Of a DNA stretch of 64,000 nucleotides, positions 9,637 to 59,030 are shown in pieces. Numbering within the stretch: position 1 is the stretch's first letter; the number at the start of each line of letters is the position of its first letter. The stretch is from Hormiphora californensis. Taxonomy: Eukaryota > Animalia > Ctenophora. The notes beneath the pieces are model-generated. The model had not been told where the DNA came from and searched no databases. It saw nothing but the letters and a program-made list of their open reading frames with translations. The DNA is taken from assembly GCA_020137815.1 (NCBI GenBank), contig CM035360.1, positions 1,798,001 through 1,862,000 of the forward strand. Direction: 5' to 3'. Position numbers and translations under genes: made by a program.

Positions 9637-11394
9637 TGATTGTCAATGCTTTGATCGGTGCTCTCCATGAATTTTCAGAGAAAAAGATATTTTGAAATTC
9701 GAATTCTTCCTCACCCCGCTTAAGGGTACACCTGGCGTTTTTCATCATCGAGTGCCCAACCAAATGACTTCACCAGGGTTTAGGCCATACAAAATGGACC
9801 TCAAATATGCAATTTTAGCCCTAAAGTCGAATTCATATTTTTGCTACAGCCTATTTTCAAAGTGGCGTTTTTTCAATTTTTGGTGGAATTTTTAACCTCA
9901 GGACCACTTTTTTTGAGATAGAAACATTAAATTCTTGGAATTTGAAGAGAATATAAAGGTAAATAAGCCCAAAGAAGGATTTTTGAAATGGAGCTTATTT
10001 CTGGCCATGAGAACGGTTTACTTTTTTGCTTCTTTGACACGGTGGCTGAGAATGTTCCCATGCTTCATTAGAGATGAAAATCTGGAAATAGTTGCTCAAA
10101 ACGATTATCTATGTGGCCCAAAAATTTTGGAACTTTCCCGCCAAAGATGTGGTGTACAGGGCTTGTTTTGTGAAACCCATCTTTTTGAAAAAGAGGGAAA
10201 TTCCCTGTATCTCAAAAACGGATGATCGTAGAGACCTGCGACCAAGCTTAATCGATTCAGAAGGTCCGATTTTGGGGGGGTCTTCTGAGAGACATTTTGC
10301 TCCTACTCCAACCGTTTTTGCTGTACTTGCAAAAAACCAATTCTATGAAAAGGGGGAACAACTCTATTCCAGTAGCCTGCTTCGGGCTGATTTCCCCCTT
10401 ACTTACTGATACCTTTTTCGCAATTACAGCAAAAACGGTTGGAGTAGGAGCAAAATGTCTCTCAGAAGACCCCCCCAAAATCGGACCTTCTGAATCGATT
10501 AAGCTTGGTCGCAGGTCTCTACGATCATCCGTTTTTGAGATACAGGGAATTTCCCTCTTTTTCAAAAAGATGGGTTTCACAAAACAAGCCCTGTACACCA
10601 CATCTTTGGCGGGAAAGTTCCAAAATTTTTGGGCCACATAGATAATCGTTTTGAGCAACTATTTCCAGATTTTCATCTCTAATGAAGCATGGGAACATTC
10701 TCAGCCACCGTGTCAAAGAAGCAAAAAAGTAAACCGTTCTCATGGCCAGAAATAAGCTCCATTTCAAAAATCCTTCTTTGGGCTTATTTACCTTTATATT
10801 CTCTTCAAATTCCAAGAATTTAATGTTTCTATCTCAAAAAAAGTGGTCCTGAGGTTAAAAATTCCACCAAAAATTGAAAAAACGCCACTTTGAAAATAGG
10901 CTGTAGCAAAAATATGAATTCGACTTTAGGGCTAAAATTGCATATTTGAGGTCCATTTTGTATGGCCTAAACCCTGGTGAAGTCATTTGGTTGGGCACTC
11001 GATGATGAAAAACGCCAGGTGTACCCTTAAAGTGCCCCGATTAGGCATGCAATGGTATCACGTATCGGTTCGTTTCGAACCGTCTAATTAGCAGCAAGAC
11101 ATGCGATACGATGCACTGATTCGATAAACGATTCGGACGTGGTTGAACTTCAGAAAATTTTTATAACTTTTTTTGATTTTTTTAAATTATTTTCTTTTTC
11201 TAATCAGAAATGGTCATGTAATCATGGACATTGCATGGACATTGCATTTAACACTTAGAGGTGTTTTAGTATAGCATTTTGGACAAAAATAGGGTTTTAT
11301 GGGCCAAATATGCTCTACCCCGATTTAACGGACACCCCGATTTAACGGACAAAACCCTTTCCCCCGGGGGTGCCGTTAAATCGGGGTCCGACTG
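9637..11394. mobile_element. Left-truncated copy of the cagtcggaccccgattta (TA-flanked, Tc1/mariner-pogo-like) element, interrupted by a foldback
   Basis: 9637-9723 and 11027-11394 are collinear with about 41947-42383. Confidence 0.85.
9724..11026. mobile_element. 1.3-kb foldback DNA transposon with TTAA target-site duplication (Kolobok-like, non-autonomous)
   Basis: Arms of about 600 bp (9724-10325 and 10425-11026), termini GGGTACACC...GGTGTACCC, TTAA on both sides. An empty site with a single TTAA is at 42030-42033. Confidence 0.9.
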
Positions 11395-18695: not shown

Positions 18696-27337
<8,642 letters not shown>

Positions 27338-27541: not shown

Positions 27542-28852
27542 CTACTGACTATTAATTCCTTCATTAGTTGAATAATAAAACTGTTCAACCTCAACTAACA
27601 GAGGGTGAGATTTACTAAGTGAGAGAGATAAACACTTGAGAGACATATCAAACAATTGTAACGCCCTGTTATAATTATCCAGATACTCAGCTTTGTCAGC
27701 AAACTTTTGATTCAGCTGTAACTTCCCCAGTTTAGCTAGGAACAGTCCTGTGGAGGGGTAACTTTGTGCCCAATCCATCAACCCTACAGTTGCCTTGAGT
27801 CCCGTCCGAAGTGCCGCCTCCCACCGCTCCTCTATAATCAATGCATCTGTTTCCGCCATCAGATGAGCCATAATCTCAATATCTTGCTGAGCCCGGGTGG
27901 TTATGGCAGAGTTGAATGTGGCAATGTTTTTCAACATCACATCGTTTATTTTTGTCACACTTTTGAGCAGTGAGCTCTGGCAGGATGGACATTGCAGATC
28001 ATTGTTTGGGATGTCAATGGCAGGGTTTGAGTGTTCTTTACAAGACGGGCACTCTCTCAGCAGTTGAGTGTCCCGACCCTTTTTACGCTGATCAGTACAC
28101 AACCCGCACGTGCATTCAAAGTTGTACTGCGAGAAAAGTTGCTGATGTCGTGAGAGGAATGGTTTGGGTAGGGAGATGTAGGAGATTGTTATCTGTTCAC
28201 CTGCTGGGATCTCCCTAATCGCAGTCACGTACGCAGTCCGGCCTCTGAATGACAGGACACAGTTCGGATCACAGGAGTGATTTAGCTTAGTTAGTTCGGG
28301 AATTAGCGCTGAACCGATTTCATTAAACTGTGTATCTTCCAATGTGAACAAGTTCACTACCAGTTTGATATACAGTGAATAAACCTTCTCTGGTGCAGCT
28401 GTAGCACACATCTCCCTCACTCCTCTCAACAAAAAAGGGTAATACTGGCATATCTTTTCATTTTCCACGGATTCGTGTTTCATCATACCATCCACTTTGT
28501 AAGTGGACCTCATTTCTGAGGAGGAAACGAGGAGGGCACAAAATCTGATTAAAGGAGGCACAAAATGGGAAGCATTGATCGAACTGAGCAGATCACACTC
28601 TGCCTTGTGGACCTTCCAGTTGTCTCTCTGGCACCCTTCTGAGCAGTAACGAAGGTGTTTACACCGGGAACACCGTTTCAGCGAGGAACATGGCTGGAAA
28701 CAATGGTTACACAGTTCTCGGTGACTCTTCTCGTTCAGGCAGGTGATCATTTGTGAGGTTTTGAAGAGGTTTGTCCGGGGTTTCAGGGTGCTTTTCGCGA
28801 AGAGGCCACTCCCCGTTTTGTCATCGATGTATTTAGAGCAGAATAAAACCAT
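27542..28852 (-). CDS. SMYD-family (SET-MYND) lysine methyltransferase, intronless
   Basis: Split SET (GSGLFA...LNHSCDPNC...EQITISY), MYND (CNHC..CSRC..YCSEGCQRDNWKVHKAEC), post-SET FECTCGLC and a helical C-terminal domain; first ATG at 28852. Confidence 0.93.
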   Translation of the reverse strand: MVLFCSKYIDDKTGSGLFAKSTLKPRTNLFKTSQMITCLNEKSHRELCNHCFQPCSSLKRCSRCKHLRYCSEGCQRDNWKVHKAECDLLSSINASHFVPPLIRFCALLVSSSEMRSTYKVDGMMKHESVENEKICQYYPFLLRGVREMCATAAPEKVYSLYIKLVVNLFTLEDTQFNEIGSALIPELTKLNHSCDPNCVLSFRGRTAYVTAIREIPAGEQITISYISLPKPFLSRHQQLFSQYNFECTCGLCTDQRKKGRDTQLLRECPSCKEHSNPAIDIPNNDLQCPSCQSSLLKSVTKINDVMLKNIATFNSAITTRAQQDIEIMAHLMAETDALIIEERWEAALRTGLKATVGLMDWAQSYPSTGLFLAKLGKLQLNQKFADKAEYLDNYNRALQLFDMSLKCLSLSLSKSHPLLVEVEQFYYSTNEGINSQ

Positions 28853-29115
28853 GTCTAGTGAAAAATAATTGGTCAATAATCACTGCACTATCAAAAAGGG
28901 AAGATTGGCAAATGGCGAGAGCTCTTCCGCAAAAAAAAACGAAGCCGTGGTCCACGGCTGCGTGGATCTGAAAAACAAAACTGGAAAACAGATTTAAGAT
29001 CGACCCAAATTTCCTGAGCTGAGGAAATGGGAATTGTGTGTGTGAAAGCCGGGGTTGCCGGTCCAATTAAAACGGAATAAAAATCAAGGTAATCAGTACA
29101 TATAAGATTAATAAA

Positions 29116-30250
29116 TTAGATTAGATTAATGTCATTGGTTAAACTACAAAACCGAGTCCATTTATTCCCCCTGAACCCCCTGATGGAAATGAGTACAGTT
29201 TTTAGGAGTGAGAAAGAAAGTCGTAGTCTGATATAGCGCACGCTATCATTATAGGTATGCCCGGTTTTGTCGGCGAGACGGTTCGCAAGCTTCTTGTAAA
29301 ATACCCCGGCTCTTGGACCCATGACCCCAGTTGTTGAGAAAACCAGTGGAGTGAAAGTTGCTTTCTCCACCTCAACTACTCGTGCATCATAATGAAGTAC
29401 TTTTTCTCGCTCATGTCGCTTGATGGTGTTTTTGAGTGGCTGAGAAATGTTAGTAGGTGCCAGGCTATTGAAGACTCGGATGTCAGTGAATACCATATCG
29501 AGGTCACTCCACACATTCCGGGCAGAAACATCCAAACGGGCACTGTTAACAGTGATAGCAGATTTGAATTGGAATGTTTCACCAGTTATGGGTAGGAGCT
29601 GCGGCTCAATACGGACGTCTTTGCAGCCGGCCTCCACGAGGATGTTAGCTGTGAGGTCTCGGATGTTATTATGCCGTAAATACACGTAACCTCCCACGGC
29701 ACATGAAAGGCAGTGTTCGAGAGTGTTCGATTTTCCACACGCACAAACAGATGGTATGCCCTCAAAGGGTAAGTTGTAGCGTAGTAGCAGGGCATCTCTG
29801 AATTGCTGTTTATTCAGGACAAATCCGTGTTCCACCAAGGGCAGAGCAGTTAACCAGCTAGAGGCCCCTCTAGACGAGATCTCCTCGAATAATCGCTGGT
29901 CAAAGGTTGAAAGTAGTGCCCGGGTTTGTTCTTTTTCGGCATTCTGTGTAGATCGTTTTACTTTCAGGACTGCAGCCTTAGCTCCTTTCGCTTCCCACAG
30001 GAGGAGTTCCGAACGTTCTTCACTGATTAGGAGTTTTTGTTCCAGAATGAGATTTTTAAGAGGCTGGGTCGCCTGAGAAGAGTTTATGAACTCAGCAGCC
30101 GCCTGTTCTGTAGGAATCAAAATTCCGAGCCCACCATCACGTGCAGGGAGAGAGAGAAGAGAGCTCTGATGTTGGGAGGGGTGTTTGGACCTATCAGGGC
30201 AGGGATAAAAGAATCCTTGATACAGGTCTCCAAGGGCTGAGAAAATGCGA
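29116..30250 (-). mobile_element. 5'-truncated RLE-type (CRE-like) non-LTR retrotransposon
   Basis: LPARDGGLGI RT thumb, CxC...HCLSC zinc knuckle, RHNNIRD, RLDVSARNVW..FTDIRV, EREK and FTPLVFSTTG restriction-like endonuclease motifs. Confidence 0.85.
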
Positions 30251-30591
30251 AATTTATTTATTTCGCGCGGCGTAATCGTACGCGCAAAAGAAGAGACGCG
30301 CGCTTTTTTCCAGCAGGTTGCCACATTCTTTCAGGTTCATGTGCATGGCCATGACGATTTTGAACCTTTCAAAATAAAATCAAAACTAAATCGTATCACA
30401 AAAACTAAAATAAAATCAAAAACACAATAATAAGAATGTTATACATACAACGTAACGCCGACTGTACAGATAAAGATAACAAGAAAACAAAAAATATACA
30501 CATATATAACTCTGTGAAGTGTGACTGCTTCAATTTAATAAACAGTTTGCAAAGTTAAAGTTCTAAAATCAGATCGTAAAACGGTAGTTAG

Positions 30592-33500
30592 TTACTCCGA
30601 ACTTGCAGCAAAAGGCCGGAACTTATGAGAAACAAACCGGCCGTCTCTGTAAAGTAGAAGATCGTCAGCGTCACGAGAAAGGAACGCCATTACTTTTCTT
30701 GTCAATTCACCCGGTTTTGTCCCAGGCAGCTGAAAGAAAGATCGAATAACTTGAATCTGCTGTCAGGCAAAGTTAAACTGTTCAATTAACTTTTCATTGT
30801 TTTGTTCAAACCCCGGGGCGCGGGGAGGGAGGGTCGAACAAGGCAAACTTTTCACAGTTTCTGTTCGCTGACATCCCCCAATGAAATGAAATGTCAATAT
30901 CTGGTCAACCCAATCTAAGCGAACTATCGTCTATCTAATGGGGTCAGTACTGAGCGAACTATCTAATGGGGTCAGTACTGACAGACAATGAACATACGAT
31001 AAGTGAGAGGTAGAGCGTGGACCGTTCCATCCTGCTATTAAATCTCCCTCTCCGAACGAAACGGGCAAAGAATCCTGCGTAGTCGTCCCTGTTCCACTCA
31101 TCCCACATATCAGGTAGGGACATTCTTGTACACCAGTAGGTTACCTGGGGGGTGAAGTAGAGTTGGGGATAGTGGAGAGTTGTGGATTAGATAGTGGGGA
31201 ATTACGGGGTACATATATCAAACTGTAAACTTTAACCACAAACTAACAACTGACTAACAACTGACTAGTAAAAAATAAAATCTAAAATAAAAACTAAAAG
31301 AAAATATTCAAACAGTGATTAGACATACTACCTGGGCCTGAGCGAAGATTCCAACTTTAGGCTCTTCTGGAGCGGGGCTAAACATTCCTCCTCCTGCTTT
31401 TTCTCCCCTGCCATTGTCGGTCACAAGAAGTATTCTCCTATCATACTCCCTCTCTCCATCACTTGAGAACACCACTGCCAGCGAGTCATCTGCATCAACG
31501 TAGGCACCCGCCATACGAGGAGCAACTAATGGGATATAAAACATGGTGAGATGAACCAATTCGGGGATGGAGATGAGGGGAGGGAGCTGTCTAGTGTCTG
31601 GCGACACCAGATCCCGTTTTGATTCTCAAAACCACAAAACGGGTCGGTGCCGCTAAACACTAGATTATAGACAAGCAAAGCAAAGACAGGGAGGGAAGGA
31701 GGGAGAAAGATAATATCAGAGAATGAGATCATTACCTATTGTGTCACCATGATGTACCCCGGATGGATCCTCCATTCTCCCCTGAATATGATCAGCAACA
31801 GCATCCAGTGAGAAGAACAGGGCCTCTTCGTACAGAGCGGGTAGGCTGTGTCCATTACTTTCAAACCGGCGAGTTCGTAGGAAGCGGAGAATCACCTCAA
31901 AATAATCTGGATCTCCTGAAGAAGGGTAAAGAGTGTGTGTTACACAACCAAGTGAAGGGAAATCAAATCCTCCACAAACAAAGGGAAACAATTTTTTGCA
32001 TTTTTTACTGTCGATGAAGATGGCCCCATTTTGGTCGAGTGTGGGGGAGAAAACCCTACTTCCCTCTCCCAACAATCCAGTAAAGAAGTTTTCACAACCG
32101 TCGAACCTGAGTGTAGCTGGTGTCGTCTCAAATAATCGCTGAAATGGGATAATAAGGGTAAAGAATTGCGTGTCTCAGTCTAGAGGTTTGGTGGATCCCT
32201 ATTCGCGATCGAGGGGGCGGGGGCGGGATACTGTTTGTTGTAGATTAGTGTTATCTGGCCGGTTATATTTTCTATCGAGTTCTTTATCCAATATCCATGT
32301 AGATATGATAGCAACTCCCAAATTTAGTCTGCTTTCTACACGAGCCAATACAGTGTACAGTCCCGTAGCTACGCCCTCTCTATCTGCCCCCCCCCCCCTT
32401 CTCTCTCTCTATCCACCTCTCTCTCTCTCTCTCTCTCTCAGTCCTATGTGAGCACAGCAGACAAGATCCCCAACAGATTTTTTACAGTGTGTGTTTGTCT
32501 TGCATGATACTCATGGTGTAGACACCCATATTTTAGTTTCCAAAACCTGTATAATTTACCGAATTCCATGATTAACAAGCCTTGTGTAGACCTATAATTA
32601 GCTTTTCCTAGTGGGGTTACACTGTGTATATACTCCAAGGGCCCCATTTCACTATATCTTGTTGTAGACTACACTTGTGTGTTTCATGGCCTGTTACCGA
32701 TAGAACCACACTTCATATATGGGGGTAAGTAAAGTTATAGGGTTCTTAGAGCGTTCAAAGAAGGGACTCTCGCTTCCACCGGGGATGAATCCCAGTCTGC
32801 TCCTGGAATTATGCTGAGTCTTGTTTCGTTCAAACCTTTTTCGGGGCGCAGTGAAACAGGATCGAGCAAGGAAAGCTGAGTCCTGGAATCTAGATTGTCT
32901 ACCTTCCTTCCCTCTCTCTCTCCTTACATCCCTCCACTTCACAGGGTTTGTTGTCAAAGATTTGCCCGTGTATATTTGCGGAAGGGGTTGGTATAATTGG
33001 ACGGCCCATCCGCCTTGCCAAGGAGACCTACGCTGTCCCGGGGCAGTCCGTTGAGATTGTGGCCCAGTGCAAGTATGACGTCACAGAGGACCAGGTTGAG
33101 TGGAGCAGGGTGGTCATCGCTAAGGGCAAGGAGAAGGAGGAGAAGATATCGGGGAAGGACGTCAAGAAGAAACTGGGTGAGTTGTAGTTTCGAATTTGTT
33201 GCATGAGACCAGTTTCTCTCGGGCTAATATATCGGGATCGAGATTGTTTAATTTATTGGCTCCTGCTACAAGCTGAAAAAAATACTTGCCTTGTTCGACC
33301 CTCCCTCCCCGCGCCCCGGGTTTGAACAAAACAAAAAAATACGTTGCTATGGCTACTCTAACAGAAATTATCCCCCCTAACAGGTAAGGTAACTATAGAG
33401 GAGGGCAACAAAATCACCCTAACACTGTCCAAATTTGGTAAAAACGACGGTGGAAAGTACACAATATCCATCACAAAGGAGGAGGGAGCAGACCCTGATA

Positions 33501-34974
33501 CAGCTGAGACAGAGGTTATTGCAGAGGATCCCAAACGAGACAAGAAGATCCGGGGAATGTTTAATGAGATTGACAAGGACAAATCGGGGGAGATCACAAA
33601 TGAGGAGTTGGGGGAGGCTCTAAAGAAGGCTAACCCTGGTATGGCGGATGAAGATATTGATATGATGATTAAGGAGAGTGATGAGAATGGGGATGGAAAG
33701 GTGGATTATCATGAGTTCAGTATGTTTATGAAGAAGGCTGGATTGTAGGGAGCACTCTTTGCGTTTTTGGAGCGATGCCAACTATTTTTGGAGCGATGCC
33801 AACTATCGATTCCTGCTGAGATTATCGACTTGAGGACTGAGGAGGAAGCGAGCTTTGTCAAAACCGGACCGGACTCTAATTGCGACTGGTTAACGAATCC
33901 ATAACACCGGACTTATTAGAGGGGGCAAGGGAAATTCAGTATCTGTGATTCTGTAGTTGTGAGAGGAACTGGTCTCTATATTATTTGTATTTTTATCTAA
34001 ATCCTCGCTTTTTCGTTTCTTATCCCTAAAAAAGAGCTGCCAGGCCTATCACAAAACCCCAATTTCTCTACTAATCACAGGTTAATTACCTCTCTTTAAT
34101 TGTATTTCAGGAGAAGTTAGGATCAAGAACAGTAAAAAGATCGGACTGAATATCGAGGCAGTGGAGTCAGAACACCTTGGAATGTACCGGGTTTATGTAC
34201 ACGGCAAAAACGCAACAAACTACGCTACAACAGAACTAAAATATGACTTCAACCATCTGACGGACTTTAAAAAACTGGATGAGGAGAATGAGAATCTGAT
34301 CACTAAGGAGATGATGATTCAGGCAATGTGTTGTACAGATACATATCTCACTGAGAAAGAGATCAGAAAGTTTGTTAAGAATGGAGATTTTATGAAGGCG
34401 GATAAGGTGAATATATCAGGAAATACTGGTCATTGATTGGCTGGTAACCAGTCACGTGACCTAAATAACGAGTTCTGATTGGTTGTTTACTTGTGTCGGT
34501 CGGTTCCTGGTGAATATATTTGCCTTGCTCGATCGACCCTGTCTCACCGAGTAAAGGAGGGTTAATCAACAATTGAATATATCAGGGAATTAGGGCCAAT
34601 ACTCAACAAAGAATAATATTCTGGAAGGGATGGCCACCTTTTTAGTCCCCCTCCCATTGCCCTAATAGTGAAGCAGATCTCATCTCCCAATTGTCTTGTT
34701 GACACTTTTCTTTTCCAGGTTAATTATGACGAGTATGTGAGATATATGAAGTATGCTAAGAGGCACGTAGTGAGGCCGCCAGGACGAGAATTACAGCTTG
34801 ATGAGGAGCCCAAGAAGGGTGGTGGGGATGAGGGTGGCGGGGAGGGAGAGGGGGATGGGAAGGACAAGAAGAAAGACAAAAAGAAAGATAAAAAGAAAGA
34901 AGGAGAGGGAGGGGAGGAATGAGTTTACTTACCCCTCCGACGTTCAATTTGATGATTTTATTCTCCTCATCCAT
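30592..34974 (-). CDS. KCTD-type BTB/POZ (T1) domain protein
   Basis: Exon 1 34933-34974 (MDEENKIIKLNVGG, donor GTAAGT) splices in phase to 32009-32138 (RLFETTPATL...GAIFID) and about 31736-31915 (RDPDYFEVILRFLRT...LYEEALFF). Further exons near 31331-31525, 31000-31144 and 30592-30760; the C-terminal exons are less certain. Confidence 0.85.
32719..33748 (+). CDS. Nested gene, isoform A: N-acylation motif + Ig-like domain + two canonical EF-hands
   Basis: Micro-exon ATG GGG|GTAAGT 32719-32724, exon 32945-33176 and exon 33384-33748. Gives MGGLLSKICPC; Ig strands VEW and TLTLSKFGKNDGGKYTISI; loops DKDKSGEITNEE and DENGDGKVDYHE. Confidence 0.8.
34111..34922 (+). CDS. Nested gene, alternative 3' module (isoform B): second half of the Ig domain + degenerate EF-hands + charged tail
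   Basis: Phase-1 acceptor at 34110, exons 34111-34406 and 34719-34922. GEVRIKNSKKIGLNIEAVESEHLGMYRV aligns with exon 33384; loops DEENENLITKEM and DFMKADKVNYDE. Confidence 0.7.
34415..34509 (+). mobile_element. hAT-like MITE copy next to a splice donor
   Basis: Homologous to 36981-37089, with gtgaatat duplicated at 34407 and 34510. Confidence 0.8.
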
Positions 34975-35649
34975 TATTTTGACATTTTCTAAAAAAGGAT
35001 GCATGGTAAATTGTTTGTCTGTGTCGTACTATAAATTTCCAGATACCCCTCACATGTGAAGGAAAGACCTAAAATCAAAAACATAGAAAACAAAAAACAA
35101 CAATTTAAGAGTAAAATAATTAAATAGATCTAACATAATTCATACAGTTAGAAATTCGAATATATATATTAGTCAGAGAGAGATCAATTTGTGATAATCA
35201 TAGTAATTCTGTTAGTTTGTTTCTACGCTTCTGGTTGCCTAGCTCGACCCTCTTTACAAATGTAAAGGAGGGTTCCCGGAGGGTTAGAACATAACAATGT
35301 TTCTGGCTAAAACTCATATTAGCTCTACTTCTAAGGGTCTGATATTGGAACATATATATGTAAAAACTCACTGCTGACATGTTATCAACTTAACGTGCCT
35401 CTTCATATTCGTAATATGAGTGTTTAGTATATATATCGAGTTTCTGAGTAACGGGGGCAAACTGCAGCTATATCATAATAGCGGGTCCTACTTTCCAATA
35501 CTTCGTCTCAGACGACACCCTCCTTCATCCCTTTCTATTTTCCTAAATATCCTGTATCTTTCAGTAATGCTTGCCCCCGGGGCAACCCAAAATCGGCACC
35601 ACTATTAGTTGTTCCTTTCTCCTCCTCCTCTCTTTATCTCACTATGTCG

Positions 35650-37409
35650 TCAGGACTCTTTACTCCCTGAGATAAGAAGTGTTTTTGTTATTATTGTAAC
35701 GTGAAAGCAACAGATGCCGTTCTAAAATAGATCCAGATCGCTCGCTCTCTCCAGTGTTATGTAAGTATCTCTCTCCTCTCTGCGACGGTCCTGTGTCATG
35801 GACCGGGCTCTGTGTGCGCGCGCTCTAGTTTGCGCGCGGGTCACTTCATTTCTAACAGAAGGGAGTCACCGCGTGTTCCATACCTGGGTTATTGGAGGGC
35901 CGGCCTCCCCCGCCGGAACCCGGAGCTGCAGATAGGGTTCCACCCTGTGGCCCACCCTTATTGTCACCACTCTCATTGGCTACCATTTGGGAGATATTCA
36001 TTCGCTGGAAAAGGAGAGGAAGGGTTAGTTGGGGGTGCTAGGATATAAACAATGGAATTCGTCTTTGTTAATCAAAACAACAACTGCTTGACCCATCTAA
36101 AATAAGAAGACCTATCTAAAATAAAAACATCTTATTAATTCTCACCGGTCTCTTGGTAGATCCAGCGGGCGTGTGTCTATAGTTGTTGTTATCCTTCCTT
36201 CCTCCGGCATCCTCATCTTCAGAGTCACTAAACTCCTCGTCGCATGCTATCCTGTTATCCCTGTCTCTGACTGAAACACGGAGGAGGGGATGGTTAGAAT
36301 TGAAACGATAAAATCAGGGATACGAATTAAAAGCAGTTCAAAATGTTAATTGAGTAAAATATAACCCTTACTCGAAATACGGGTGTCCTTGTCCCTCTTA
36401 TCCTCATCTTCCTCAGCCTCAGGTATGGCATCAGTAGGAATATCCTGCATTTGTACACTGGGGGGTCCACCAACATACTTCAAGTTCTCAAACACTTTAG
36501 CCCTGGGATGTTAAAGCAGTTATTATGCTGTTTTAGACCAACTTGAAACCTAATAAATTACAATAATAAGTAAGAAATTATCACCAAATTTGAGGTGTAT
36601 GCGTTAGAAAATGGCCCATTTCTCTCTCCCACTTTGCTCACTATCAACCAATTTCTCTCTTCCTATTCTGCTCACTCATTTCTTTCCTATTCTGCTCACT
36701 CCCAACTCATTTCTTTCCTATTCTGCTCACTCCCTACTAATTTATTTCCTATTCTGCTCACTCCCTACTAATTTATTTCCTATTCTGCTCACTCCCTACT
36801 AATTTATTTCCTATTCTGCTAACTCCAAACTCTCTCCTACTCACTTCATCTTGTCCATGTATTCAGGTGTATTCTGGTTGGTCATGTTTCCAGGCTGGAT
36901 ATTCAGCTTGAAATCAGGTCCAAAGTATTCGAAGTAATCGTTGTATGGCAGATCTGGGGAGAGAAGTTGGACGTGTTAGCCAGGAACCGACCGAATCAGG
37001 AAATACTGGTCCCTGATTGGCTGATAACTAGTCACGTGACCTGAATAACGAGTTCTGATTGGTTGTTTACTTGTGTCGGTCGGTTCCTGGTGTCAGCAGT
37101 CACGACATAGCGGCCGGAGATTGTATGTTTTAAAATCATGTTTGTCTTCTAGAATTTCAAAATATGTCCATTTATGACAACACCGTTTTTGCCAAAACTG
37201 GGACTTGTCACACTTCTAGTTTGTCCTGGTATAACTCTCCCCACACTTACCATTGCTGATATCAATGCCCAGGGCATAAGCAGTCTCTAGTGTCCAGCAC
37301 CGTGCCACATTTCTAATGGTGTATCCACCACCCCCGAGAAGCAGAAGAGGCAGGTTGAACCTCTTCATATACTCAACACATTTAGCGTGACCTGTTCAGG
37401 GAGAGAGGG

Positions 37410-43762: not shown

Positions 43763-44191
43763 GACCTATAAGGAATAAGATTAATAATTAGTTTCCCGCA
43801 TAATAAGGTGCCTAATGTTATGTAGGAGTTCATGTGAAAGGGCCCTTCTTCTCAGCTAGCTTCTGGGTCTGATAAATTATATAATGCATTATAGGTGAAT
43901 ATATTATGCAATCTAATTTCTACTAGCTTCCGTTGCGTCTTTTCATGCTCGCTTCTTCACTCCTATCTAAAATTCTCTCTGACTTCTTATACTTTATCTA
44001 ATCTCGCTAGTCACACTGCTCTCTCGCTATCTCTCTTACTAAGTCATGGGTTATAAGTCATTAGTCACGTGCTGGGCTCATATATGTTTGCGAATTCCCT
44101 CATATATATTTCTTTTCAGTACCCCTATATTTCCTATAGGTCCTTAAATATTTGCTTAACCTTCACATTTTGTCTCGCCAGTACTTTTACC

Positions 44192-45652
44192 ATGAGTTCG
44201 ATTCGCTCTCTCCTGGGGATACACAACATTGTACCAGGCACCTACAATACAATCCACTGCTTCCCAGATCAATCAAATGATGTGGATACTCTCAAAGGAG
44301 TGGTTAGGGCGTGTCAGAAGGAAGGAATTGAACCTGTGGTAGGGCTTTTTCCTGGATCAGATATCGCTGAGAAAAACAAGGAGCTAGTGACATTCTGTAA
44401 CGGGTTTGCAGGGGTGCATGGTATTGGTAGTCTCTCTGCAGTTGATGGTAAACTGTCACTGACTGAGCTGAACAAGTATGCTGACTCAGATACTCTAAAG
44501 GCTTTTTCCCTGGATTGTAGTAACTATGGTGCTGAGATCAAAGATAATTTCAAGACTCTGTTTGGGGAGTGTGCTGGTCTAAAGAAACCTGTGGTTTTGT
44601 GTGCAGATAACAGTGTTCAGCTGACAGAGGCCTTGGTTACCATAGTAACCGATGGACTCCTTGATTTCTACCCAGATTTAGAAGTCATTGTTATGGACGC
44701 AACAGTTGTTCCTGCTCTGGTTTCTAGGCTGACTTCACCCGACCCAAGTGCCAGCCTACAGAAGCACGAACCGGAGGTATACTTTGGCAGGAACATGTTT
44801 TTCGTGTGGAACTTCTCAGATACCTTCTACACGGAGTATTTATTGAAAAAAGTGGGTTGTGATAACCTGCTCCTGGGGTATCCCGCTCCAACAGCCCAAC
44901 TATCCAACCTGGAACAACTCCACCAAGCCAAGGTGGTCTCCTGGAACGGGGCCCGGGTCCTGGGACTGGCAGAGGTTCCCCACTGGCCTCTGAATAGAAG
45001 CCGAATCACTGTTTTCTCCTCAGCTGCAGTGAACTCCCTCTCCTCCATCCTCCGAGACGCCCGAACCGGGTACACCGAGTTCATGGTACAGGGAGATCGG
45101 CTGATGCGGCTGCTTGCGGAGGAGGCTCTTGCTCGTTTACCGGGGGCAACCCCTGCCCTCTTGGAGAGTCCCACGGGTGTATATCAGGGAGTGGTAGATG
45201 ACACGCCCACTGAGAAACTGTGTGTTGTCTCCATTGTCAGGTCTGGTGATATCCTACTGGAGGCGTTCCGACAGCTCCGACCCGGACTAAAAGTCGGTAA
45301 AATCCTGATCCAACGAGACGAGAGCACCCCTGATAAAAGAGCTGTGTTCTACTACAAGAAACTGCCGGGTGACATAGCCAGCTGTCAGGTGATAGTCGTG
45401 GACCCAATGTTGGGTACTGGCGGGAGTCTGGACTGTGCGATGGAGGTGCTAACCAGTGCTGGAGTGGAGAACGTCATGTTTGTCAACCTCTACTCGTGCG
45501 AGGAGGGCCTATCCAGGATCCAACTAAAATACCCCACACTTCATACTGTCACCCTGCATATTGATCTGATGATGAATGAAAAGAAGTATCTAATTCCGGG
45601 GATTGGGGACTTTGGAGATCGGTACTATGGAACTCTCAACCCTCTCGAATAA
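44192..45652 (+). CDS. UPRT: Uracil phosphoribosyltransferase with an N-terminal degenerate amidohydrolase-like domain, copy 1
   Basis: C-terminal DRLMRLLAEEAL, VSIVRSG, GKILIQRDE, VDPMLGTGGS and YLIPGIGDFGDRYYG; about 265-aa N-terminal extension; intronless; first ATG at 44192. Confidence 0.88.
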   Translation: MSSIRSLLGIHNIVPGTYNTIHCFPDQSNDVDTLKGVVRACQKEGIEPVVGLFPGSDIAEKNKELVTFCNGFAGVHGIGSLSAVDGKLSLTELNKYADSDTLKAFSLDCSNYGAEIKDNFKTLFGECAGLKKPVVLCADNSVQLTEALVTIVTDGLLDFYPDLEVIVMDATVVPALVSRLTSPDPSASLQKHEPEVYFGRNMFFVWNFSDTFYTEYLLKKVGCDNLLLGYPAPTAQLSNLEQLHQAKVVSWNGARVLGLAEVPHWPLNRSRITVFSSAAVNSLSSILRDARTGYTEFMVQGDRLMRLLAEEALARLPGATPALLESPTGVYQGVVDDTPTEKLCVVSIVRSGDILLEAFRQLRPGLKVGKILIQRDESTPDKRAVFYYKKLPGDIASCQVIVVDPMLGTGGSLDCAMEVLTSAGVENVMFVNLYSCEEGLSRIQLKYPTLHTVTLHIDLMMNEKKYLIPGIGDFGDRYYGTLNPLE

Positions 45653-46008: not shown

Positions 46009-47481
46009 CTAATTGGTACCGTAATACCTGTCCCCAAAGTCTCCCACCCCAGGGACAATGTACTTGTGCTCGTTCATCATCAGGTCCATGTGTAATGTGA
46101 CAGTGTGGATGCCAGGATAACTATTCTGGATCCGTGCCAGACCCTCCTCGCAGGAGAACAGGTTCACAAACATGGTCTTGTTTGGGTCAACCCCTGAATC
46201 CGCCAAGACACCCAGTGCACAATCCAGGCTGCCACCAGTGGCTAACATTGGATCGACTACTATAACAGTGCATGAGGTTATATCTGCAGGGAGTTTCTTG
46301 TAGTACAGAACAGGTCGTTTATCAGGGGTGCTCTCGTCTCGTTGGATCAGGATTTTACCGACTTTTAGTCCGGGTCGGAGCTGTCGGAACGCCTCCAGTA
46401 GGATATCACCAGACCTGACAATGGAGACAACACACAGTTTCTCAGTGGGTGTGTCATCTACCACTCCCTGATATACACCCGTGGGACTCTCCAAGAGGGC
46501 AGGGGTTGCCCCCGGTAAACGAGCAAGAGCCTCCTCCGCAAGCAGCCTCATCAGCCGATCTCCCTGTACCATGAACTCGGTGTACCCGGTTCGGGCGTCT
46601 CGGAGGGTGGAGGAGAGGGAGTTCACTGCAGCTGAGGAGAAAACAGTGATTCGGCTTCTATCCAGAGGCCAGTGGGGAACCTCTGCCAGTCCAAGGACCC
46701 GGGCACCGTTCCAGGAGACCACCTTGGCTTGGTGGAGTTGTTCCAGGTGGGATAGTTGGGCTGTTGGGGCAGGGTACCCCAGGAGAAGGTTATCACAACC
46801 AACTTTGTTCAATAAATACTCCGTGTAGAAGGTATCTGAAAAGTTCCACACGAAAAACATGTTCCTGCCAAAGTATACCTCCGGTTCGTGCTTCTGTAGG
46901 CTGGCACTTGGGTCGGGTGAATTCAGCCTAGAAACCAGAGCAGGAACAACTGTTGCATCCATAACAATGACTTCTAAATCTGGGTAGAAATCAAGGAGTC
47001 CATCAGTTACTATGGTAACCAAGGCCTCTGTCAGCTGAACACTGTTATCTGCACATAAAACCACAGGTTTCTTTAGACCAGCACACTCCCCGAACAGCCT
47101 ATAAATTCGTTTATAATCCTCCTGTCGTTCAGCCACTGCGGCACAATGGATTGAAAATGCCTTTACCGGGCCTTCCGTGGAATACTTTTCAATTTCGCCC
47201 AACGCAGCCTCTAAATCCTCTGTACTAAGTCCGGCCACTCCATGAACCCTTCTCTCGAGATCGGAGCATGCTGATGTTAACACCTCGTTCCAGGTTGTGA
47301 GATCTTTGCCGGATGGAAAGAATCCTACCACCGGTTCAGCCGTGTCTTCACAGCTTGATAAAATGCTCGAGATAGCAGTCGGTACATCAGCATTGTGAAC
47401 TGGCGGCGGTGGAAGTCCTGTGAAACGAATGGCATTCTTAAAAACACCGGGCACAATATTCCGTATCCCAAGTAAAGACAT
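46009..47481 (-). CDS. UPRT: Uracil phosphoribosyltransferase with an N-terminal degenerate amidohydrolase-like domain, copy 2
   Basis: VDPMLATGGS and YIVPGVGDFGDRYYG; inverted paralogue of 44192-45652. Confidence 0.88.
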   Translation of the reverse strand: MSLLGIRNIVPGVFKNAIRFTGLPPPPVHNADVPTAISSILSSCEDTAEPVVGFFPSGKDLTTWNEVLTSACSDLERRVHGVAGLSTEDLEAALGEIEKYSTEGPVKAFSIHCAAVAERQEDYKRIYRLFGECAGLKKPVVLCADNSVQLTEALVTIVTDGLLDFYPDLEVIVMDATVVPALVSRLNSPDPSASLQKHEPEVYFGRNMFFVWNFSDTFYTEYLLNKVGCDNLLLGYPAPTAQLSHLEQLHQAKVVSWNGARVLGLAEVPHWPLDRSRITVFSSAAVNSLSSTLRDARTGYTEFMVQGDRLMRLLAEEALARLPGATPALLESPTGVYQGVVDDTPTEKLCVVSIVRSGDILLEAFRQLRPGLKVGKILIQRDESTPDKRPVLYYKKLPADITSCTVIVVDPMLATGGSLDCALGVLADSGVDPNKTMFVNLFSCEEGLARIQNSYPGIHTVTLHMDLMMNEHKYIVPGVGDFGDRYYGTN

Positions 47482-47984
47482 CCCTGGTGTGAAACCTAAA
47501 TTCAGTAATCAGTAATTTTAAATATCATCATTTTGATTTGAAAATAGAGATTTGAAAAATGTAAATGGCGAACAGCAGCACTCGGTAGCTAATTGAGCTC
47601 GAAAAAGTTCACAGTTTAGTTGTCTTCTCTATTATTGGAATTGGCAACGTGAAGCATAACGCATATTTGGCAGATGAAGCCCATAAATTGGTCCAGCTCG
47701 AATCATAGGCTATTTTCTGCAGAGCACACTGCTGGCCAGCGTCAAAATCTGGGTGAGTGCTGACACTTTAGGGTTAGGGCTAAATTAGGGTTAGGGTTGG
47801 GGTTTGGGTTGGGGTTAGGCCTTGACATTCCCTACCAGATAAACTTTGGATTAGCCAACGGTTGAGTGATTTGGCGGTTAGAGCCATTTTAGTGAATCAA
47901 CTTTTTTGGAAGAACGATCCACGGGCGTCGTTACGATCTGGATGCTAAACCACTCAACCGTTTTGGTTAATTCAAAGTTTATCT

Positions 47985-55230: not shown

Positions 55231-55838
55231 AATTAGCGGGTTTGGTTTGGTTAGGGTTGCTTATCTGGGACAGTAAACAGTCACACAGCCAAGTCTCGCC
55301 GACCAGCCAAGAAAGCATAGTGCCGAATCGATGCGGATCATCCTTTTGCTACCAGATTGTCTTCTGTCTAATGGTCCCAGCCACATCATATACAGTTGCA
55401 TGGCAGGTAGTATGTGAGATCTGACCCTTAGTGTAATGATCTGATCCTGGGTGGGTTGATCTGTGATCCAATCTAATGACGGATATTTTTGGCCCAATCA
55501 ACATTTTACGCATCATGATATAGTAAACATGTTAACTTTATTTTTAAGTTGAGAAGAGGGGTCAGCCGTACCACTAGAACACTGAAAATTTAGAATTTAC
55601 TCTTCCACACTTTTCTGCCACTTTTATGTTCTTCACTTCTTCATCCCTTGATCTTTTGGTCCTCTGAATGACGTTACTAACACCTCGTCGCTCAAGCACC
55701 TTTGAACTACTAGTCTGCTAAGGTGTTGAATTCAAGTCTTGAATCTTGAATCTTGAATCTAGCTAACCTCTCGTGACACTTTCTCAAGCCAATGTTCTAC
55801 CACAAACTTCGCTTTGTCTTTGTAGCAGCTAAAATGAG

Positions 55839-58800
55839 ATGACTCTCTTTGTTTTCGTGTGTTACGTAGTTGTCGTCGCTAGAGGACTTTTCGATGATAA
55901 CGATGGTGGGTGTCCGGTAGCAGTCGACAATGGGTTTTTGGTTAGGTCATGCCAAGACCAAGAAGTTTCATCCTGGCATGGCTTTCTTATGAAATGCCTT
56001 AACTCTTCCACCATGTACTACAAAAAGTTTACACTTGACATTTCCGACAGAAAAATAAAACCCTATGTAACGACTTTGTGCCCTAACGATTCTATCCAGT
56101 ATCAGGCTTGCGGGAGTGGCAGTTTCGTGCCCTTGTACGATCCCGCTATAAACCTCTTCCAAACATCCCCCGTGTGTGGGAAGTTGTGTTACGAACATGA
56201 CATGGATATGTACGGGTTTCACATGTCATCTCAAACATGTCCCGGGGCTCATAATTATAGTCATGGTCGAGTTAGGAAAACCATCTCCACCGTTGAGGGC
56301 GACATTATTACGATCTTGATTAAAGAAGGAGGCATATGTGACGGTCGTTGTGATGAAGTGGAGCTGGAAGAAAACATAGCGGCACCTACGTTGACATGTG
56401 TCGATGAAAAATCTTGCGATGGATATAATTATGGGGCTGTCATGGCTAAGCAAGAATATTTTTATGTCTTTACTCCCTTCAACGATTTACTCGAACTGAT
56501 AGGTTCTATGAAAAAATCTAAGAATAACACTTGTGCTGATTTTCCGCTTCATAACGCATCACGTTGCTTTATTCCCTTACCACTGCACTCAACTAAATAT
56601 CTAATTAGTTATGATGGTGTATCTTATTGTCATGACGGTTTAGACCAGACAAACTGTTCGGATCCAGCTAAGATCGCCGGTTCGTGCCTTATCGGCGGAT
56701 ATCTCTCTACAGTTTCCATTTATATTCTCTGTCAGGAGAAGTCAATGTTGTGTGATGATGATATGCACAAAAAGTGCCCAACGATTAACCGGTATTGCAC
56801 CATTCATAAGCATCAGTTATGCAATGGGCAAGATGATTGTGCTATGGGTGCAGATGAGCGGAAGGCGACGTGTCTTAAGCTCACCCAACGATCGTGTGTT
56901 CGTAGTTTTAGCCAAAATCAGGGTATTCTTAGGATTCCAGTGGACTGGGTCCAGGATGGAGATGTAGACTGTCTTGACGGGATAGATGAAAAGGCTAACT
57001 GGCAAACGTGCGGCAAAGGCATCAGGAGGACAATTAAATGGTCAACTAAGAAATGTACCAATGTCTTCCTCTGCAAACATAACATGGAAAAATTTTTAGA
57101 GGCCACCCTTTTATGTTCCTTTCCCTCAAACTGTGACGAAGAAGTGTGCCGCATGGCTAAAAGCAGGCCACAAATATCAAAACAGATGCTTAGCACCAGC
57201 CTAACAGAAGGAATAAAACTCAAGAGTTCAGTTTGCACAAAAGGCATTCAATCTATCCTTCTTCTCACAGACCAAATTTGTCGATCTAAAACGTTCCATC
57301 ATCCCTTCCATCTGTTCTTCGGTAAAAACTTTACAACCAAATTAGTTTTTCTGACTACAAAACGCGATTGTAGGTACTTGTACGGTGAAGCATATGTGTT
57401 TTACAGCTGTTCAGGACTTTGCTACAACACACCGTGTCCCTTGAAAAGACCCATCCTTCATAACACTTGTAGCAACCTCAGAAACACCTTTTATTCTCTC
57501 AACTTCGAGCTTGGCTCAATTACCGTTGTACAAAAGTCTCGTGAACGGTTCCACAACAACTTCTTTGTTTGTAAAAACACAAAATGCGTCCTGTTTGAGA
57601 AGGTGTGCGATCTTGTTGATGACTGTGGGGACAGGTCCGACGAGGAGGAATGTACGAACAACTTCCAGTGTTCTGATAAGTCCGGATTCTTAGCTTTGAG
57701 TCAGAAGTGTGATGGAAAGATTGACTGCAAGGACTTCTCTGATGAATGTAATGAGAGTTGTAGGAGGAAAGCTGTAAACAGTAATGCCATTTTGGGAGTT
57801 GCCTTTGTCATGGGAATTACAGGGTTCGTTTTTGGAATTGGTGGACTTATTAAGAACACCAAACAGAAGTCGGAAAAGAGTGGCGAATTCATCAATCAAG
57901 CCATGGTCCTGATGATTTCGTTTGGAGATCTACTGACATCTGTTTATCTCCTTACCCTCACTATAATCCACTGGATCCACGGTTCCGGGTTCTGTGAGTA
58001 TCAAATTGAATGGATTAGTGGAGCCCCTTGTACCATCATTGGAGTTTTGAATAGCATTGGATCATCCATTTCTTCACTTGTGATGGCCTTAGCCAGCTGC
58101 TTCCGACTCCATGGTACAGTAATGGCCCTTCGATACCGCCGTTCAAAGAAGGTTACTCTGAAGCTGAAGATAAATTTAGGTGCATTACTCGCAGTCGTCA
58201 CATCGATATCTTTAGCAGTATCTACTTTTCCATTGTTCGACACTTTCAATGAATGGTTTGTCAATGGACTAGTCTTTGAAAGAGGCTTTACACTATTTCT
58301 TGGAGTGATGGATAAAAGTCAACTGCTGAAGATTGTTCGGGGTTACCATGGAAGCCACGAAACCAGACGAAGTCAGTCCGACAACACTGTGTCTTGGAAC
58401 ACATATCAAGAAATGATTTCTGAGATGTTTTCCAAGGATTATGATCCGGTAAGGGGCAAAAGGCTGTCTTTCTACGGTAACGACCCAGCGTGTATGTTTA
58501 AGGCATTTGTCCTGTCGGATGACCCACAAGTTCTTTTCGTATGGGCATACCTCAGCTTCCATTTTCTCTGCTTTTTATGTGTAGCGATATGCCATGGGAT
58601 GATTGCAGTTCTCGTTAAAAGATCACATATCCAAAGTACCAGGACGTCCAGCTCACTCAATTGCAATGTCTCTTTGATCTGCCTAACTGATTTTTGCTGC
58701 TGGATGCCCTTCCTTATCTGCTGCATCCTCCACACAGCTGAGGTTGTTGATATGTCACCATGGTACCAGATCTTCTCCCTTAACATTCTCCCCCTCAACT

Positions 58801-59030
58801 CTGTACTGAATCCCGTTTTGTACAGTGGTGTAGTAGCAACGATTTGGAACTACTTTAATAGTGACCAAAATGCTGATGGCGCTCGTGATGTTGCGCCTGA
58901 TATCACTCCTAAAGATTTTTCTAAAGATGCTCCTGAAGATGCTCCTGATGTTGCTCCTGAAGATGCTCCTAAAGATGCTCCTGATGTTGCTCCTGAAAAT
59001 GTTTCTGATGTTTCCCCTTATTTACCTTAA
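55839..59030 (+). CDS. Intronless rhodopsin-class GPCR with an LDL-receptor class A repeat ectodomain (GRL101/LGR-like, no visible LRRs)
   Basis: Signal peptide; LDLa motifs CNGQDDCAMGADE, DGDVDCLDGIDE, CDLVDDCGDRSDE and CDGKIDCKDFSDE; 7TM with FGDLLTSVYL, LTDFCCWMPF and LPLNSVLNPVLYS. Confidence 0.92.
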   Translation: MTLFVFVCYVVVVARGLFDDNDGGCPVAVDNGFLVRSCQDQEVSSWHGFLMKCLNSSTMYYKKFTLDISDRKIKPYVTTLCPNDSIQYQACGSGSFVPLYDPAINLFQTSPVCGKLCYEHDMDMYGFHMSSQTCPGAHNYSHGRVRKTISTVEGDIITILIKEGGICDGRCDEVELEENIAAPTLTCVDEKSCDGYNYGAVMAKQEYFYVFTPFNDLLELIGSMKKSKNNTCADFPLHNASRCFIPLPLHSTKYLISYDGVSYCHDGLDQTNCSDPAKIAGSCLIGGYLSTVSIYILCQEKSMLCDDDMHKKCPTINRYCTIHKHQLCNGQDDCAMGADERKATCLKLTQRSCVRSFSQNQGILRIPVDWVQDGDVDCLDGIDEKANWQTCGKGIRRTIKWSTKKCTNVFLCKHNMEKFLEATLLCSFPSNCDEEVCRMAKSRPQISKQMLSTSLTEGIKLKSSVCTKGIQSILLLTDQICRSKTFHHPFHLFFGKNFTTKLVFLTTKRDCRYLYGEAYVFYSCSGLCYNTPCPLKRPILHNTCSNLRNTFYSLNFELGSITVVQKSRERFHNNFFVCKNTKCVLFEKVCDLVDDCGDRSDEEECTNNFQCSDKSGFLALSQKCDGKIDCKDFSDECNESCRRKAVNSNAILGVAFVMGITGFVFGIGGLIKNTKQKSEKSGEFINQAMVLMISFGDLLTSVYLLTLTIIHWIHGSGFCEYQIEWISGAPCTIIGVLNSIGSSISSLVMALASCFRLHGTVMALRYRRSKKVTLKLKINLGALLAVVTSISLAVSTFPLFDTFNEWFVNGLVFERGFTLFLGVMDKSQLLKIVRGYHGSHETRRSQSDNTVSWNTYQEMISEMFSKDYDPVRGKRLSFYGNDPACMFKAFVLSDDPQVLFVWAYLSFHFLCFLCVAICHGMIAVLVKRSHIQSTRTSSSLNCNVSLICLTDFCCWMPFLICCILHTAEVVDMSPWYQIFSLNILPLNSVLNPVLYSGVVATIWNYFNSDQNADGARDVAPDITPKDFSKDAPEDAPDVAPEDAPKDAPDVAPENVSDVSPYLP

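What the first reader, a model, noticed from the sequence alone, without database searches (positions are those of the whole stretch)
32139..34974. Whole gene nested antisense in KCTD intron 1, ending 10 nt from the host exon
The KCTD BTB motif is split as IIKLNVGG|RLFETT across a 2.8-kb intron that is largely filled by the plus-strand Ig-EF gene. The isoform B stop (34922) lies 10 nt from the end of host exon 1 (34933). Its 3' UTR must therefore run antisense over the KCTD donor, start codon and upstream region, whereas isoform A ends about 1.2 kb earlier. Isoform choice could gate host expression by antisense overlap or polymerase collision (inference).
Basis: partly seen in the sequence, partly recalled or inferred. 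Interest (0 to 1): 0.7.

Follow-up and report, generated by a model that had tools for sequence, protein, structure and literature searches.

The report
RNA stem picks nested gene's tail
In what is likely a comb-jelly genome, a gene for an antibody-fold protein with likely calcium-binding EF hands lies backwards inside an intron of another gene, an arrangement common in these animals; the more notable feature is a 16-base stretch, whose core recurs in two relatives, that likely pairs with an upstream partner in the RNA to skip one tail exon in favour of a second.

Summary
The layout is real. KCTD exon 1 (34974-34933, minus strand) is the best of 1,162 candidate exons and joins exon 2 across a 2,794-nt intron. 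That intron holds the coding part of a plus-strand Ig + EF-hand gene with two alternative tails, A and B. B's stop is 10 nt from exon 1. All named relatives are ctenophores, where nesting is routine (2,357 nested genes in Hormiphora).

The proposed gating of KCTD is not supported. Both isoforms lie in the host polymerase's path. One relative has no KCTD exon 1 in the 188 nt after B's stop. No RNA contig covered the KCTD junction or B's 3' UTR.

The better finding: a 16-bp inverted repeat (33205-33220 / 33961-33976) brackets exon A. Its downstream arm recurs in two related loci within otherwise unalignable spacers. Their 12-nt core is the exact complement of this window's upstream arm (0 of 300 shuffles). 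It likely loops out A so the shared donor reaches B, as shown for Drosophila Nmnat. Not shown: the upstream arm in relatives, or any spliced shared-to-B junction. Known mechanism, apparently unreported in ctenophores.

The parts
34933..34988 (-). KCTD exon 1 (coding 34974-34933; 5' edge at a predicted acceptor AG ending 34989, a second candidate ends 35069; 3-codon upstream ORF overlapping the start as TAATG)
32139..34932 (-). KCTD intron 1, 2,794 nt, GT-AG, phase 0, splitting the BTB N-terminus LNVGG|RLFETT
   Evidence: homolog contiguous
30592..32138 (-). KCTD coding exons 2-6 (32138-32009, 31915-31736, 31525-31332, 31144-30998, 30729-30592)
   Evidence: open 276-aa frame, 46% identical to XP_063690902.1; BTB_2 weak hit on the exon 2-3 stretch
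32719..32724 (+). Nested gene start: ATG GGG then donor GTAAGT (gives MG|GLLSKICPC, a predicted myristoylation/palmitoylation start)
   Evidence: relatives begin MGGLCAKICPC, MGGVLAKICPC or MGSLLATICPC; acylation inferred from recalled motif rules
32945..33176 (+). Shared exon: first four strands of a V-set-like Ig domain; phase-1 donor GTGAGT
33205..33220 (+). 5' arm of the predicted stem (GAGACCAGTTTCTCTC), 28 nt after the shared donor
33384..33748 (+). Tail exon A, coding part: second half of the Ig domain plus a canonical EF-hand pair; starts with GTAAGG, a possible regenerated donor
   Evidence: RNA contig 33425-33972
33961..33976 (+). 3' arm of the predicted stem (GAGAGGAACTGGTCTC) in A's 3' UTR; core recurs in L001 and L002; the A contig's match ends inside it at 33972
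34111..34406 (+). Tail exon B1: duplicate of exon A (Ig second half, degenerate EF hands), same phase-1 acceptor, no conserved Met of its own
   Evidence: RNA contig 34210-34412
34719..34922 (+). Tail exon B2: end of the second EF hand plus a charged low-complexity tail; stop TGA at 34920-34922
34923..35140 (+). Predicted B 3' UTR, antisense to the KCTD donor, exon 1 and upstream acceptors (end point inferred from hexamers only)
   Evidence: not covered by RNA contigs
35204..35665 (-). Last exon of the upstream HDAC-like gene; its RNA contig match ends at 35204, 230 nt from the KCTD start codon
   Evidence: spliced 720-nt contig; weak Hist_deacetyl hit further upstream

Best explanation
The coding part of a likely ctenophore Ig + EF-hand gene lies antisense inside the 2.8-kb first intron of a KCTD gene and has two duplicated tail cassettes, A and B, and a 16-base-pair RNA stem predicted to form between the intron after the shared exon and A's 3' UTR likely loops out exon A so that the shared donor is spliced to B. 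Shown: both gene structures, the A/B duplication, the inverted repeat, and recurrence of the downstream arm in two relatives. Inferred: if the stem forms before exon A is spliced, A's acceptor is hidden in a 740-nt loop. The 934-nt path from donor to B acceptor then shrinks to about 160 nt plus the stem, near the 93-312 nt of the seven other introns of the two genes. The stem may also cover A's cleavage site. If the stem does not form, A is used. The switch completes the same split Ig domain with either a canonical Ca2+-binding EF pair (A) or a degenerate pair plus a charged tail (B), on a protein predicted to be membrane-anchored by N-terminal acylation. B's 3' UTR overlaps KCTD exon 1 here most likely because the genome is compact, not as a conserved switch.
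For: Stem: 15 Watson-Crick pairs plus 1 G-U. It is the longest helix between the 207-nt intron and the 362-nt spacer (17 bp with a terminal G-U; 1 of 400 shuffles reach it). Pair probabilities are 0.99-1.0 in a 981-nt fold, and neither arm has a rival partner within 11 kcal/mol. Conservation: the spacers of L001 and L002 share a 15-nt exact word (0 of 300 shuffles, maximum 11). Its 12-nt core sits 48 nt before the B acceptor in both and is the exact reverse complement of the window's intron arm (0 of 300 shuffles for each). Over the 14-nt core, the two differences between the window's 3' arm and the relatives are both A/G changes facing a U, so pairing is kept. The window's G-U becomes a mismatch on the host strand (pair probability 0.0). 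B is a duplicate of A starting at the same residue (HHalign probability 95.6, E 1.3e-8). It recurs downstream of A in the Mnemiopsis gene model, L001 and L002, and its first 24 residues are conserved while the window's Met is not. The A/B junction falls between strands 4 and 5 of 8 in a model of relative P0003, which matches Ig domains. Same geometry tested by mutation in Drosophila Nmnat. Nesting is common in ctenophores.
Against: The upstream arm was not seen in any relative: L002 lacks that intron and L001 starts after it, so there is no compensatory change on both sides. Only two related spacers were found. The window is rich in inverted repeats: 41 of 316 stems of 16 bp or more are not low-complexity (my count), and one of equal length inside this locus (34276-34291 / 34958-34973) looks like a coding coincidence. 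In a matched real-sequence control, 9 of 422 segment pairs reach 17 bp. The whole 981-nt region folds less well than all 20 shuffles. Direct spacer-to-spacer matches between the window and each relative are at chance level (8 nt; 182 and 175 of 300 shuffles). No full-length shared+B protein or junction was found: 0 of 18 members of the four Ig-EF clusters is one, and the B hits P0022-P0024 have unrelated N-termini. A's acceptor looks weaker than B's (13 versus 18 pyrimidines of 23), unlike Nmnat, where the proximal site is stronger.
Confidence: 0.62

Rival explanations
1. Isoform-gated antisense control: making B produces RNA complementary to the KCTD donor, exon 1 and start codon and lowers KCTD output, while A does not.
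For: The overlap is forced by the 10-nt gap. The first poly(A)-like hexamers lie beyond exon 1. Antisense competition is named as a possible role of nested genes by Schultz et al..
Against: Head-on collision applies to both isoforms. L001 has no KCTD exon 1 in the 188 nt after B's stop. L002 shows A-type sequence running into B. B's tail is low-complexity and varies in length between relatives, so the stop position is labile. No expression evidence was obtained.
Confidence: 0.1
2. B is made in two steps (recursive splicing): the shared exon first joins A, which regenerates a donor because exon A begins with GTAAGG, and that donor is then spliced to the B acceptor. The stem would be a side route or not needed.
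For: Exon A starts GTAAGG in the window and at L002 313-318. L002 has the form of the expected intermediate: shared exon joined to A, spacer retained, B following.
Against: The Gly-Lys codons make this word likely by chance. KCTD exon 5 and exon B2 also begin with GT. The route removes the 5' arm first, so it does not explain an exact complement of the conserved word in that intron.
Confidence: 0.12
3. The downstream word is conserved for another job, such as 3'-end formation of A or a protein-binding splicing enhancer for B, and its complement in the upstream intron is chance or a remnant of a small foldback element.
For: The A contig's match ends inside the word (33972) with 22 unmatched letters that may be poly(A) (letters not shown). 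No AATAAA lies nearby. The window carries many inverted repeats. Two other 1-mismatch copies of the 12-mer occur in the window against 0.36 expected.
Against: An exact 12-nt complement of a word defined by two other species falls in the one 207-nt intron where it would be useful (0 of 300 shuffles). The two other copies share no flanks with the arms. The stem is a single isolated pair, not part of a repeat cluster. L001 and L002 run through the word.
Confidence: 0.12

Closest known systems
Drosophila Nmnat intron 4 / exon 5 stem, boxes 1 and 2 (Raker et al. 2009, PMC2724269; passages and second part of section 11 read)
   Same: Two complementary boxes surround a proximal acceptor that leads to an internal terminal exon; one box lies in the intron, the other in that exon's 3' part; the stem favours the distal acceptor and changes the C-terminus.
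   Different: Nmnat was proven by box and compensatory mutations and both boxes are conserved in an alignment; here only the downstream arm was seen in relatives. In Nmnat the proximal acceptor is stronger and the distal exon is internal; here the distal cassette is a duplicate of the proximal one.
Docking-site/selector pairing at 3' variable regions of Drosophila PGRP-LC, CG42235 and Pip (Pan et al. 2018, PMC6191721; abstract and Discussion read)
   Same: Tandem duplicated 3' cassettes joined to a common donor, with RNA pairing steering the choice.
   Different: There several selectors compete for one docking site; here one pair only, and no rival partner was found.
Nested intronic genes of Hormiphora californensis (Schultz et al. 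2021, PMC8527503; passages read, supplements not available)
   Same: A protein-coding gene inside one intron of a host, on the opposite strand; the paper counts 2,357 such genes in 1,654 hosts and allows 15% overlap with host exons.
   Different: No difference in kind. Whether this very pair is on their list could not be seen.
Mutually exclusive exon cluster in Mnemiopsis Mhc2 (PMC3912159; passages read)
   Same: Shows duplicated alternative exons already predicted in a ctenophore.
   Different: Internal exons; the passages read propose no RNA pairing, and the term 'RNA secondary structure' occurs only in the reference list.
KCTD (BTB/POZ, Pfam BTB_2) proteins: Bolinopsis KCTD4-like XP_063690900.1 / XP_063690902.1
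   Same: 46% identity over nearly the whole host protein.
   Different: Its gene layout in Bolinopsis could not be read; it shares a 20,825,282-nt longest contig with the Ig-EF homolog, which fits linkage but does not show nesting.

Membership tests
Antisense nested intronic gene | Host exons on both sides join into one open frame homologous to an intact protein | tested here: met
Antisense nested intronic gene | Nested gene is a real, transcribed, conserved gene on the opposite strand | tested here: met
   homologs 68-82% identical over the shared exon; RNA-library contigs over A and B1 (contigs do not show strand, and DNA carry-over was not excluded by a separate silent control)
Antisense nested intronic gene | Whole transcript lies inside the intron | tested here: inconclusive
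   coding part and isoform A fit; B's 3' UTR must overlap exon 1; ends not mapped
Antisense nested intronic gene | Host intron excised in RNA (junction 34933>32138) | tested here: inconclusive
   no contig covers it; a related transcript-derived protein is contiguous there (P0005)
Alternative last exons by tandem duplication | Homologous cassettes with the same acceptor phase behind one shared donor | tested here: met
Alternative last exons by tandem duplication | Both junctions seen in RNA | tested here: inconclusive
   shared-to-A seen in relatives; shared-to-B not found
Nmnat-type long-range splicing stem | Complementary boxes flank the proximal acceptor and terminal exon | tested here: met
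Nmnat-type long-range splicing stem | Both boxes conserved across species, with pair-keeping changes | tested here: inconclusive
   downstream box conserved in 2 of 2 related spacers, with two one-sided A/G-facing-U changes; upstream box unavailable in relatives
Nmnat-type long-range splicing stem | Disrupting and restoring the stem shifts acceptor use | not testable with these tools
   needs a minigene
Competing docking/selector system (Dscam or PGRP-LC type) | One docking site with two or more alternative selectors | tested here: not met
   next-best partner of the 5' arm -15.0 versus -30.4 kcal/mol; of the 3' arm -18.1 versus -30.7
Regulatory cis-antisense pair (isoform-gated) | Overlap conserved in relatives | tested here: not met
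   1 relative testable (L001): no KCTD exon 1 within 188 nt of the B stop
Regulatory cis-antisense pair (isoform-gated) | Inverse expression or causal effect on the host | not testable with these tools
   only assembled contigs were available

The most novel reading that the evidence does not exclude
A long-range RNA stem, kept across divergent ctenophores, controls alternative last-exon choice outside Bilateria. It loops out and possibly blocks cleavage of exon A, switching a ctenophore-restricted, membrane-anchored Ig protein between a Ca2+-sensing and a Ca2+-blind tail. Only the stem-dependent B form sends antisense RNA over the host's first exon, so one helix could tie tail choice to host output in this species.
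Probability: 0.5. Interest if true: 0.62.

Novelty: new member of a known kind. Interest (0 to 1): 0.45.

Why it matters
The nesting alone matters little, since it is routine in ctenophores. The stem would extend splicing control by long-range RNA pairing, known from flies and mammals, to one of the earliest-branching animal lineages. That bears on whether this control is ancestral to animals or arose repeatedly after exon duplication. Three searches found no report of it in ctenophores. 'ctenophore + mutually exclusive + docking site' gave 3 listings and 'ctenophore + alternative splicing + RNA secondary structure' gave 3, none on this topic by title and abstract start, and I read passages of one. 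'ctenophore + long-range + base pairing + splice site + pre-mRNA' gave 0. The library lacks most subscription papers. The case is small and makes a sharp prediction that published ctenophore genomes can test at once. The Ig + EF-hand protein also seems undescribed (0 papers for ctenophore + EF-hand + immunoglobulin + myristoyl).

Tried and rejected
No whole genome is held for the window, so paralogs and genome-wide nesting frequency were not measured. Sequencing runs: 3 listed, 2 holding small shares (0.19 and 0.06), one study, contigs only. They do not cover KCTD exons, the KCTD junction, 33973-34209 or 34923-35203; the bin depths there are fully explained by neighbouring contigs. This absence is not evidence. 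The B1 contig's single mismatch and 6 leftover letters fit the B1-B2 splice, but the letters were not shown. The 22 and 23 unmatched letters at the ends of the A and HDAC contigs may be poly(A); also not shown. A metagenome scan with the shared exon found nothing (589 candidates, 0 confirmed). The MAFFT alignment of the three spacers did not place the window's word with the relatives'; the register was set by hand. B as an independent gene was rejected: no suitable ATG lies in 33797-34181, and the window's first Met is not conserved. Window A versus window B1 alone is not significant (E 0.23); homology rests on cross-species and profile comparisons. The all-protein search with B1 gave one ctenophore-like hit and 9 unrelated repeat-rich proteins. 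The Atlas gave only generic Ig clusters. No earlier findings exist on this locus or its relatives. No local hairpin holds the conserved word in L001 or L002. No spliced-leader gene match was found with the 15-nt leader word. One paper came up for ctenophore poly(A) signals and it was off topic. Synteny in Bolinopsis and Mnemiopsis could not be read. The Hormiphora supplements, which may list this pair, were unavailable.
Full report
Setting. The window is eukaryotic and intron-rich. Every named relative of the two genes is a ctenophore protein. These are Mnemiopsis KAL5249473.1 and Bolinopsis XP_063690734.1 for the nested gene, and Bolinopsis KCTD4-like XP_063690900.1/902.1 for the host. Identities of 68-82% over the shared exon and 46% for KCTD indicate a ctenophore other than these two; the species was not determined.

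Host gene. On the minus strand, 34974-34933 reads MDEENKIIKLNVGG with donor GTAAGT, and exon 2 starts RLFETT at 32138 after ...TTTCAG. A six-exon model is open for 276 codons with GT-AG introns of 2,794, 93, 210, 187 and 268 nt. It aligns to the Bolinopsis protein from residue 5 to 272 (E 2e-75; score 218 with exon 1, 204 without). Exon 1 is the best of 1,162 candidate 9-codon stretches upstream (34 against 13), and the frame just upstream of exon 2 is closed.

Nested gene. It starts ATG GGG|GTAAGT at 32719, continues with a shared exon 32945-33176 (phase 1), and then takes either exon A (33384-33748) or exons B1 (34111-34406) and B2 (34719-34922), giving 200 or 245 aa. A carries a clear EF-hand pair (EF-hand_1, E 2.5e-15); B1 has only a trace (E 0.05), and relatives' B cassettes score below the Pfam cut-off. 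A model of relative P0003 (pLDDT 78.8) has eight strands, four on each side of the A/B junction, and matches Ig V-type domains. B aligns to A from the first residue of exon A (28% identity, E 5e-8). It lies after A in the Mnemiopsis gene model and in loci L001 and L002. Its first 24 residues are conserved while the window's first Met is not, so B has to borrow the shared exon. That junction is inferred: no full-length B protein turned up among 18 cluster members or in the B searches. N-terminal acylation and loss of Ca2+ binding in B follow from recalled motif rules, not from a call. RNA-library contigs cover A (33425-33972) and B1 (34210-34412) in run X1 and A's UTR in X2.

The 10-nt gap. It is real. 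The first poly(A)-like hexamers downstream are TATAAA at 35030 and AGTAAA/AATAAT/ATTAAA at 35110-35119, so B's UTR almost surely covers the KCTD donor, exon 1 and start. That does not make it a switch. Both isoforms are transcribed against the host polymerase. L001 has 188 nt after its B stop with no trace of KCTD exon 1. L002 lacks the introns that the window has at MG|G and KKLG|K, so it is probably spliced RNA, and it runs from A through the spacer into B; A RNAs can thus extend distally. Nesting itself is ordinary. Hormiphora has 2,357 nested genes in 1,654 hosts, counted with 15% overlap allowed (PMC8527503, passages). Abstracts on C. elegans (PMC12274878) and mammals (PMC11694760) report co-expression of nested pairs.

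The stem. Comparing the A-to-B spacers showed one shared word. L001 and L002 share GGGAGAAACTGGTCA exactly (15 nt; 0 of 300 shuffles, maximum 11), with its 12-nt core ending 48 nt before the B acceptor in both. The window has GAGAGGAACTGGTCTC at 33961-33976, and its complement GAGACCAGTTTCTCTC at 33205-33220, 28 nt after the shared donor. The relatives' 12-nt core is the exact reverse complement of the window's intron arm (0 of 300 shuffles each). The window's 5' arm pairs with the three spacers at -33.0, -28.6 and -28.3 kcal/mol (0 of 300 shuffles each, though the L002 margin is 0.1). Both differences in the 14-nt core are A/G changes opposite U. In a 981-nt fold all 16 pairs have probability 0.99-1.0; on the host strand the wobble position is unpaired. 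The helix length alone is rare in shuffles (1 of 400; mean 0.3 such stems per block-shuffled window) but not in this repeat-rich genome. There, 9 of 422 matched real segment pairs reach 17 bp, 41 of 316 long stems are not low-complexity (my count), and the region as a whole folds worse than its 20 shuffles. The case rests on conservation and position, not on length. Two earlier scan findings of similar stems were judged chance or mobile-element remains, which prompted the control.

Mechanism. If the stem forms before exon A is committed, A's acceptor sits in a 740-nt loop and the donor-to-B distance falls from 934 nt to about 160 nt plus the stem, so B is chosen; otherwise A is chosen. The A contig's match ends at 33972, inside the 3' arm, with 22 unseen letters. 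If these are poly(A), the stem would also hide A's cleavage site; this step is speculative. The geometry matches Drosophila Nmnat, where box mutations cut distal splicing and compensation restored it (PMC2724269, passages and part of section 11). It differs from PGRP-LC, CG42235 and Pip, which use competing selectors (PMC6191721, abstract and Discussion). The microRNA control of such stems reported in flies (PMC13092977, abstract only) is unlikely to apply, since ctenophores are recalled to lack microRNAs.

Verdict. Observation confirmed; the proposed regulation is unsupported; the nesting is ordinary. The locus holds a probable Nmnat-type splicing stem, a known mechanism for which three literature searches found no ctenophore report. 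It works like the Nmnat stem by geometry; membership stays open until the upstream arm is seen in relatives and the stem is mutated. Interest 0.45.

Noticed in passing
window 34974-35665 (minus): The spliced HDAC-like transcript's match ends at 35204, 230 nt from the KCTD start and about 135 nt from a U-rich acceptor ending at 35069; a second acceptor ends at 34989. This spacing would fit an operon-like pair resolved by spliced-leader trans-splicing, leaving KCTD little room for its own promoter.
   Followed up: partly
window 34985-34974 (minus): Three-codon upstream ORF (ATG TCA AAA TAA) whose stop overlaps the KCTD start as TAATG.
   Followed up: no
window 33384-33389; L002 313-318: Exon A begins GTAAGG in both, so splicing to A regenerates a consensus donor (possible recursive splice site).
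   Followed up: partly
window 34269-34291 and 34958-34980: B1 codons for LDEEN and the antisense of KCTD codons for MDEEN form a 16-21-bp inverted repeat, so a B mRNA could fold its UTR back on its own coding region; KCTD relatives lack DEEN, so probably chance.
   Followed up: partly
window 34430-34510 and 37000-37092: Two copies of a short high-copy repeat, one in the B1-B2 intron and one in an HDAC intron; summed contig depth about 1,000 in run X1.
   Followed up: no
P0016 and P0023: An A-type and a B-type protein each have a longest contig of 1,641 nt, hinting at one transcript contig carrying both frames, as in L001 and L002.
   Followed up: no
window 27542-28879 and 18901-27330 (minus): Single-exon SET/MYND (SMYD-like) gene lying about 200 nt upstream of what looks like a multi-exon SMC3-like gene (label recalled from sequence); another tight same-strand pair.
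   Followed up: no
window 29116-30330 (minus): 404-aa open frame without a Pfam hit, resembling the zinc-ribbon/endonuclease end of a non-LTR retroelement (recalled), just downstream of KCTD; an RNA contig matches part of it.
   Followed up: no
window 44057-45652 (+) and 46009-47508 (-): Convergent inverted duplicate pair of intronless genes with a uracil-phosphoribosyltransferase-like C-terminal half (label recalled from sequence) fused to a longer N-terminal part.
   Followed up: no
window 55833-59030 (+): 1,065-aa intronless frame with cysteine-rich LDL-receptor-like repeats and a seven-helix-like C-terminus (label recalled).
   Followed up: no
window 9720-11030, 24187-24979, 5415-5808, 59750-60273: Long inverted repeats (up to 606 bp per arm), probably foldback or MITE-type elements.
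   Followed up: no
P0006 (Mnemiopsis KAL5249473.1): The public gene model fuses a retroelement-like N-terminus, exon A and exon B into one 841-aa protein, probably a mis-annotation of this locus.
   Followed up: partly
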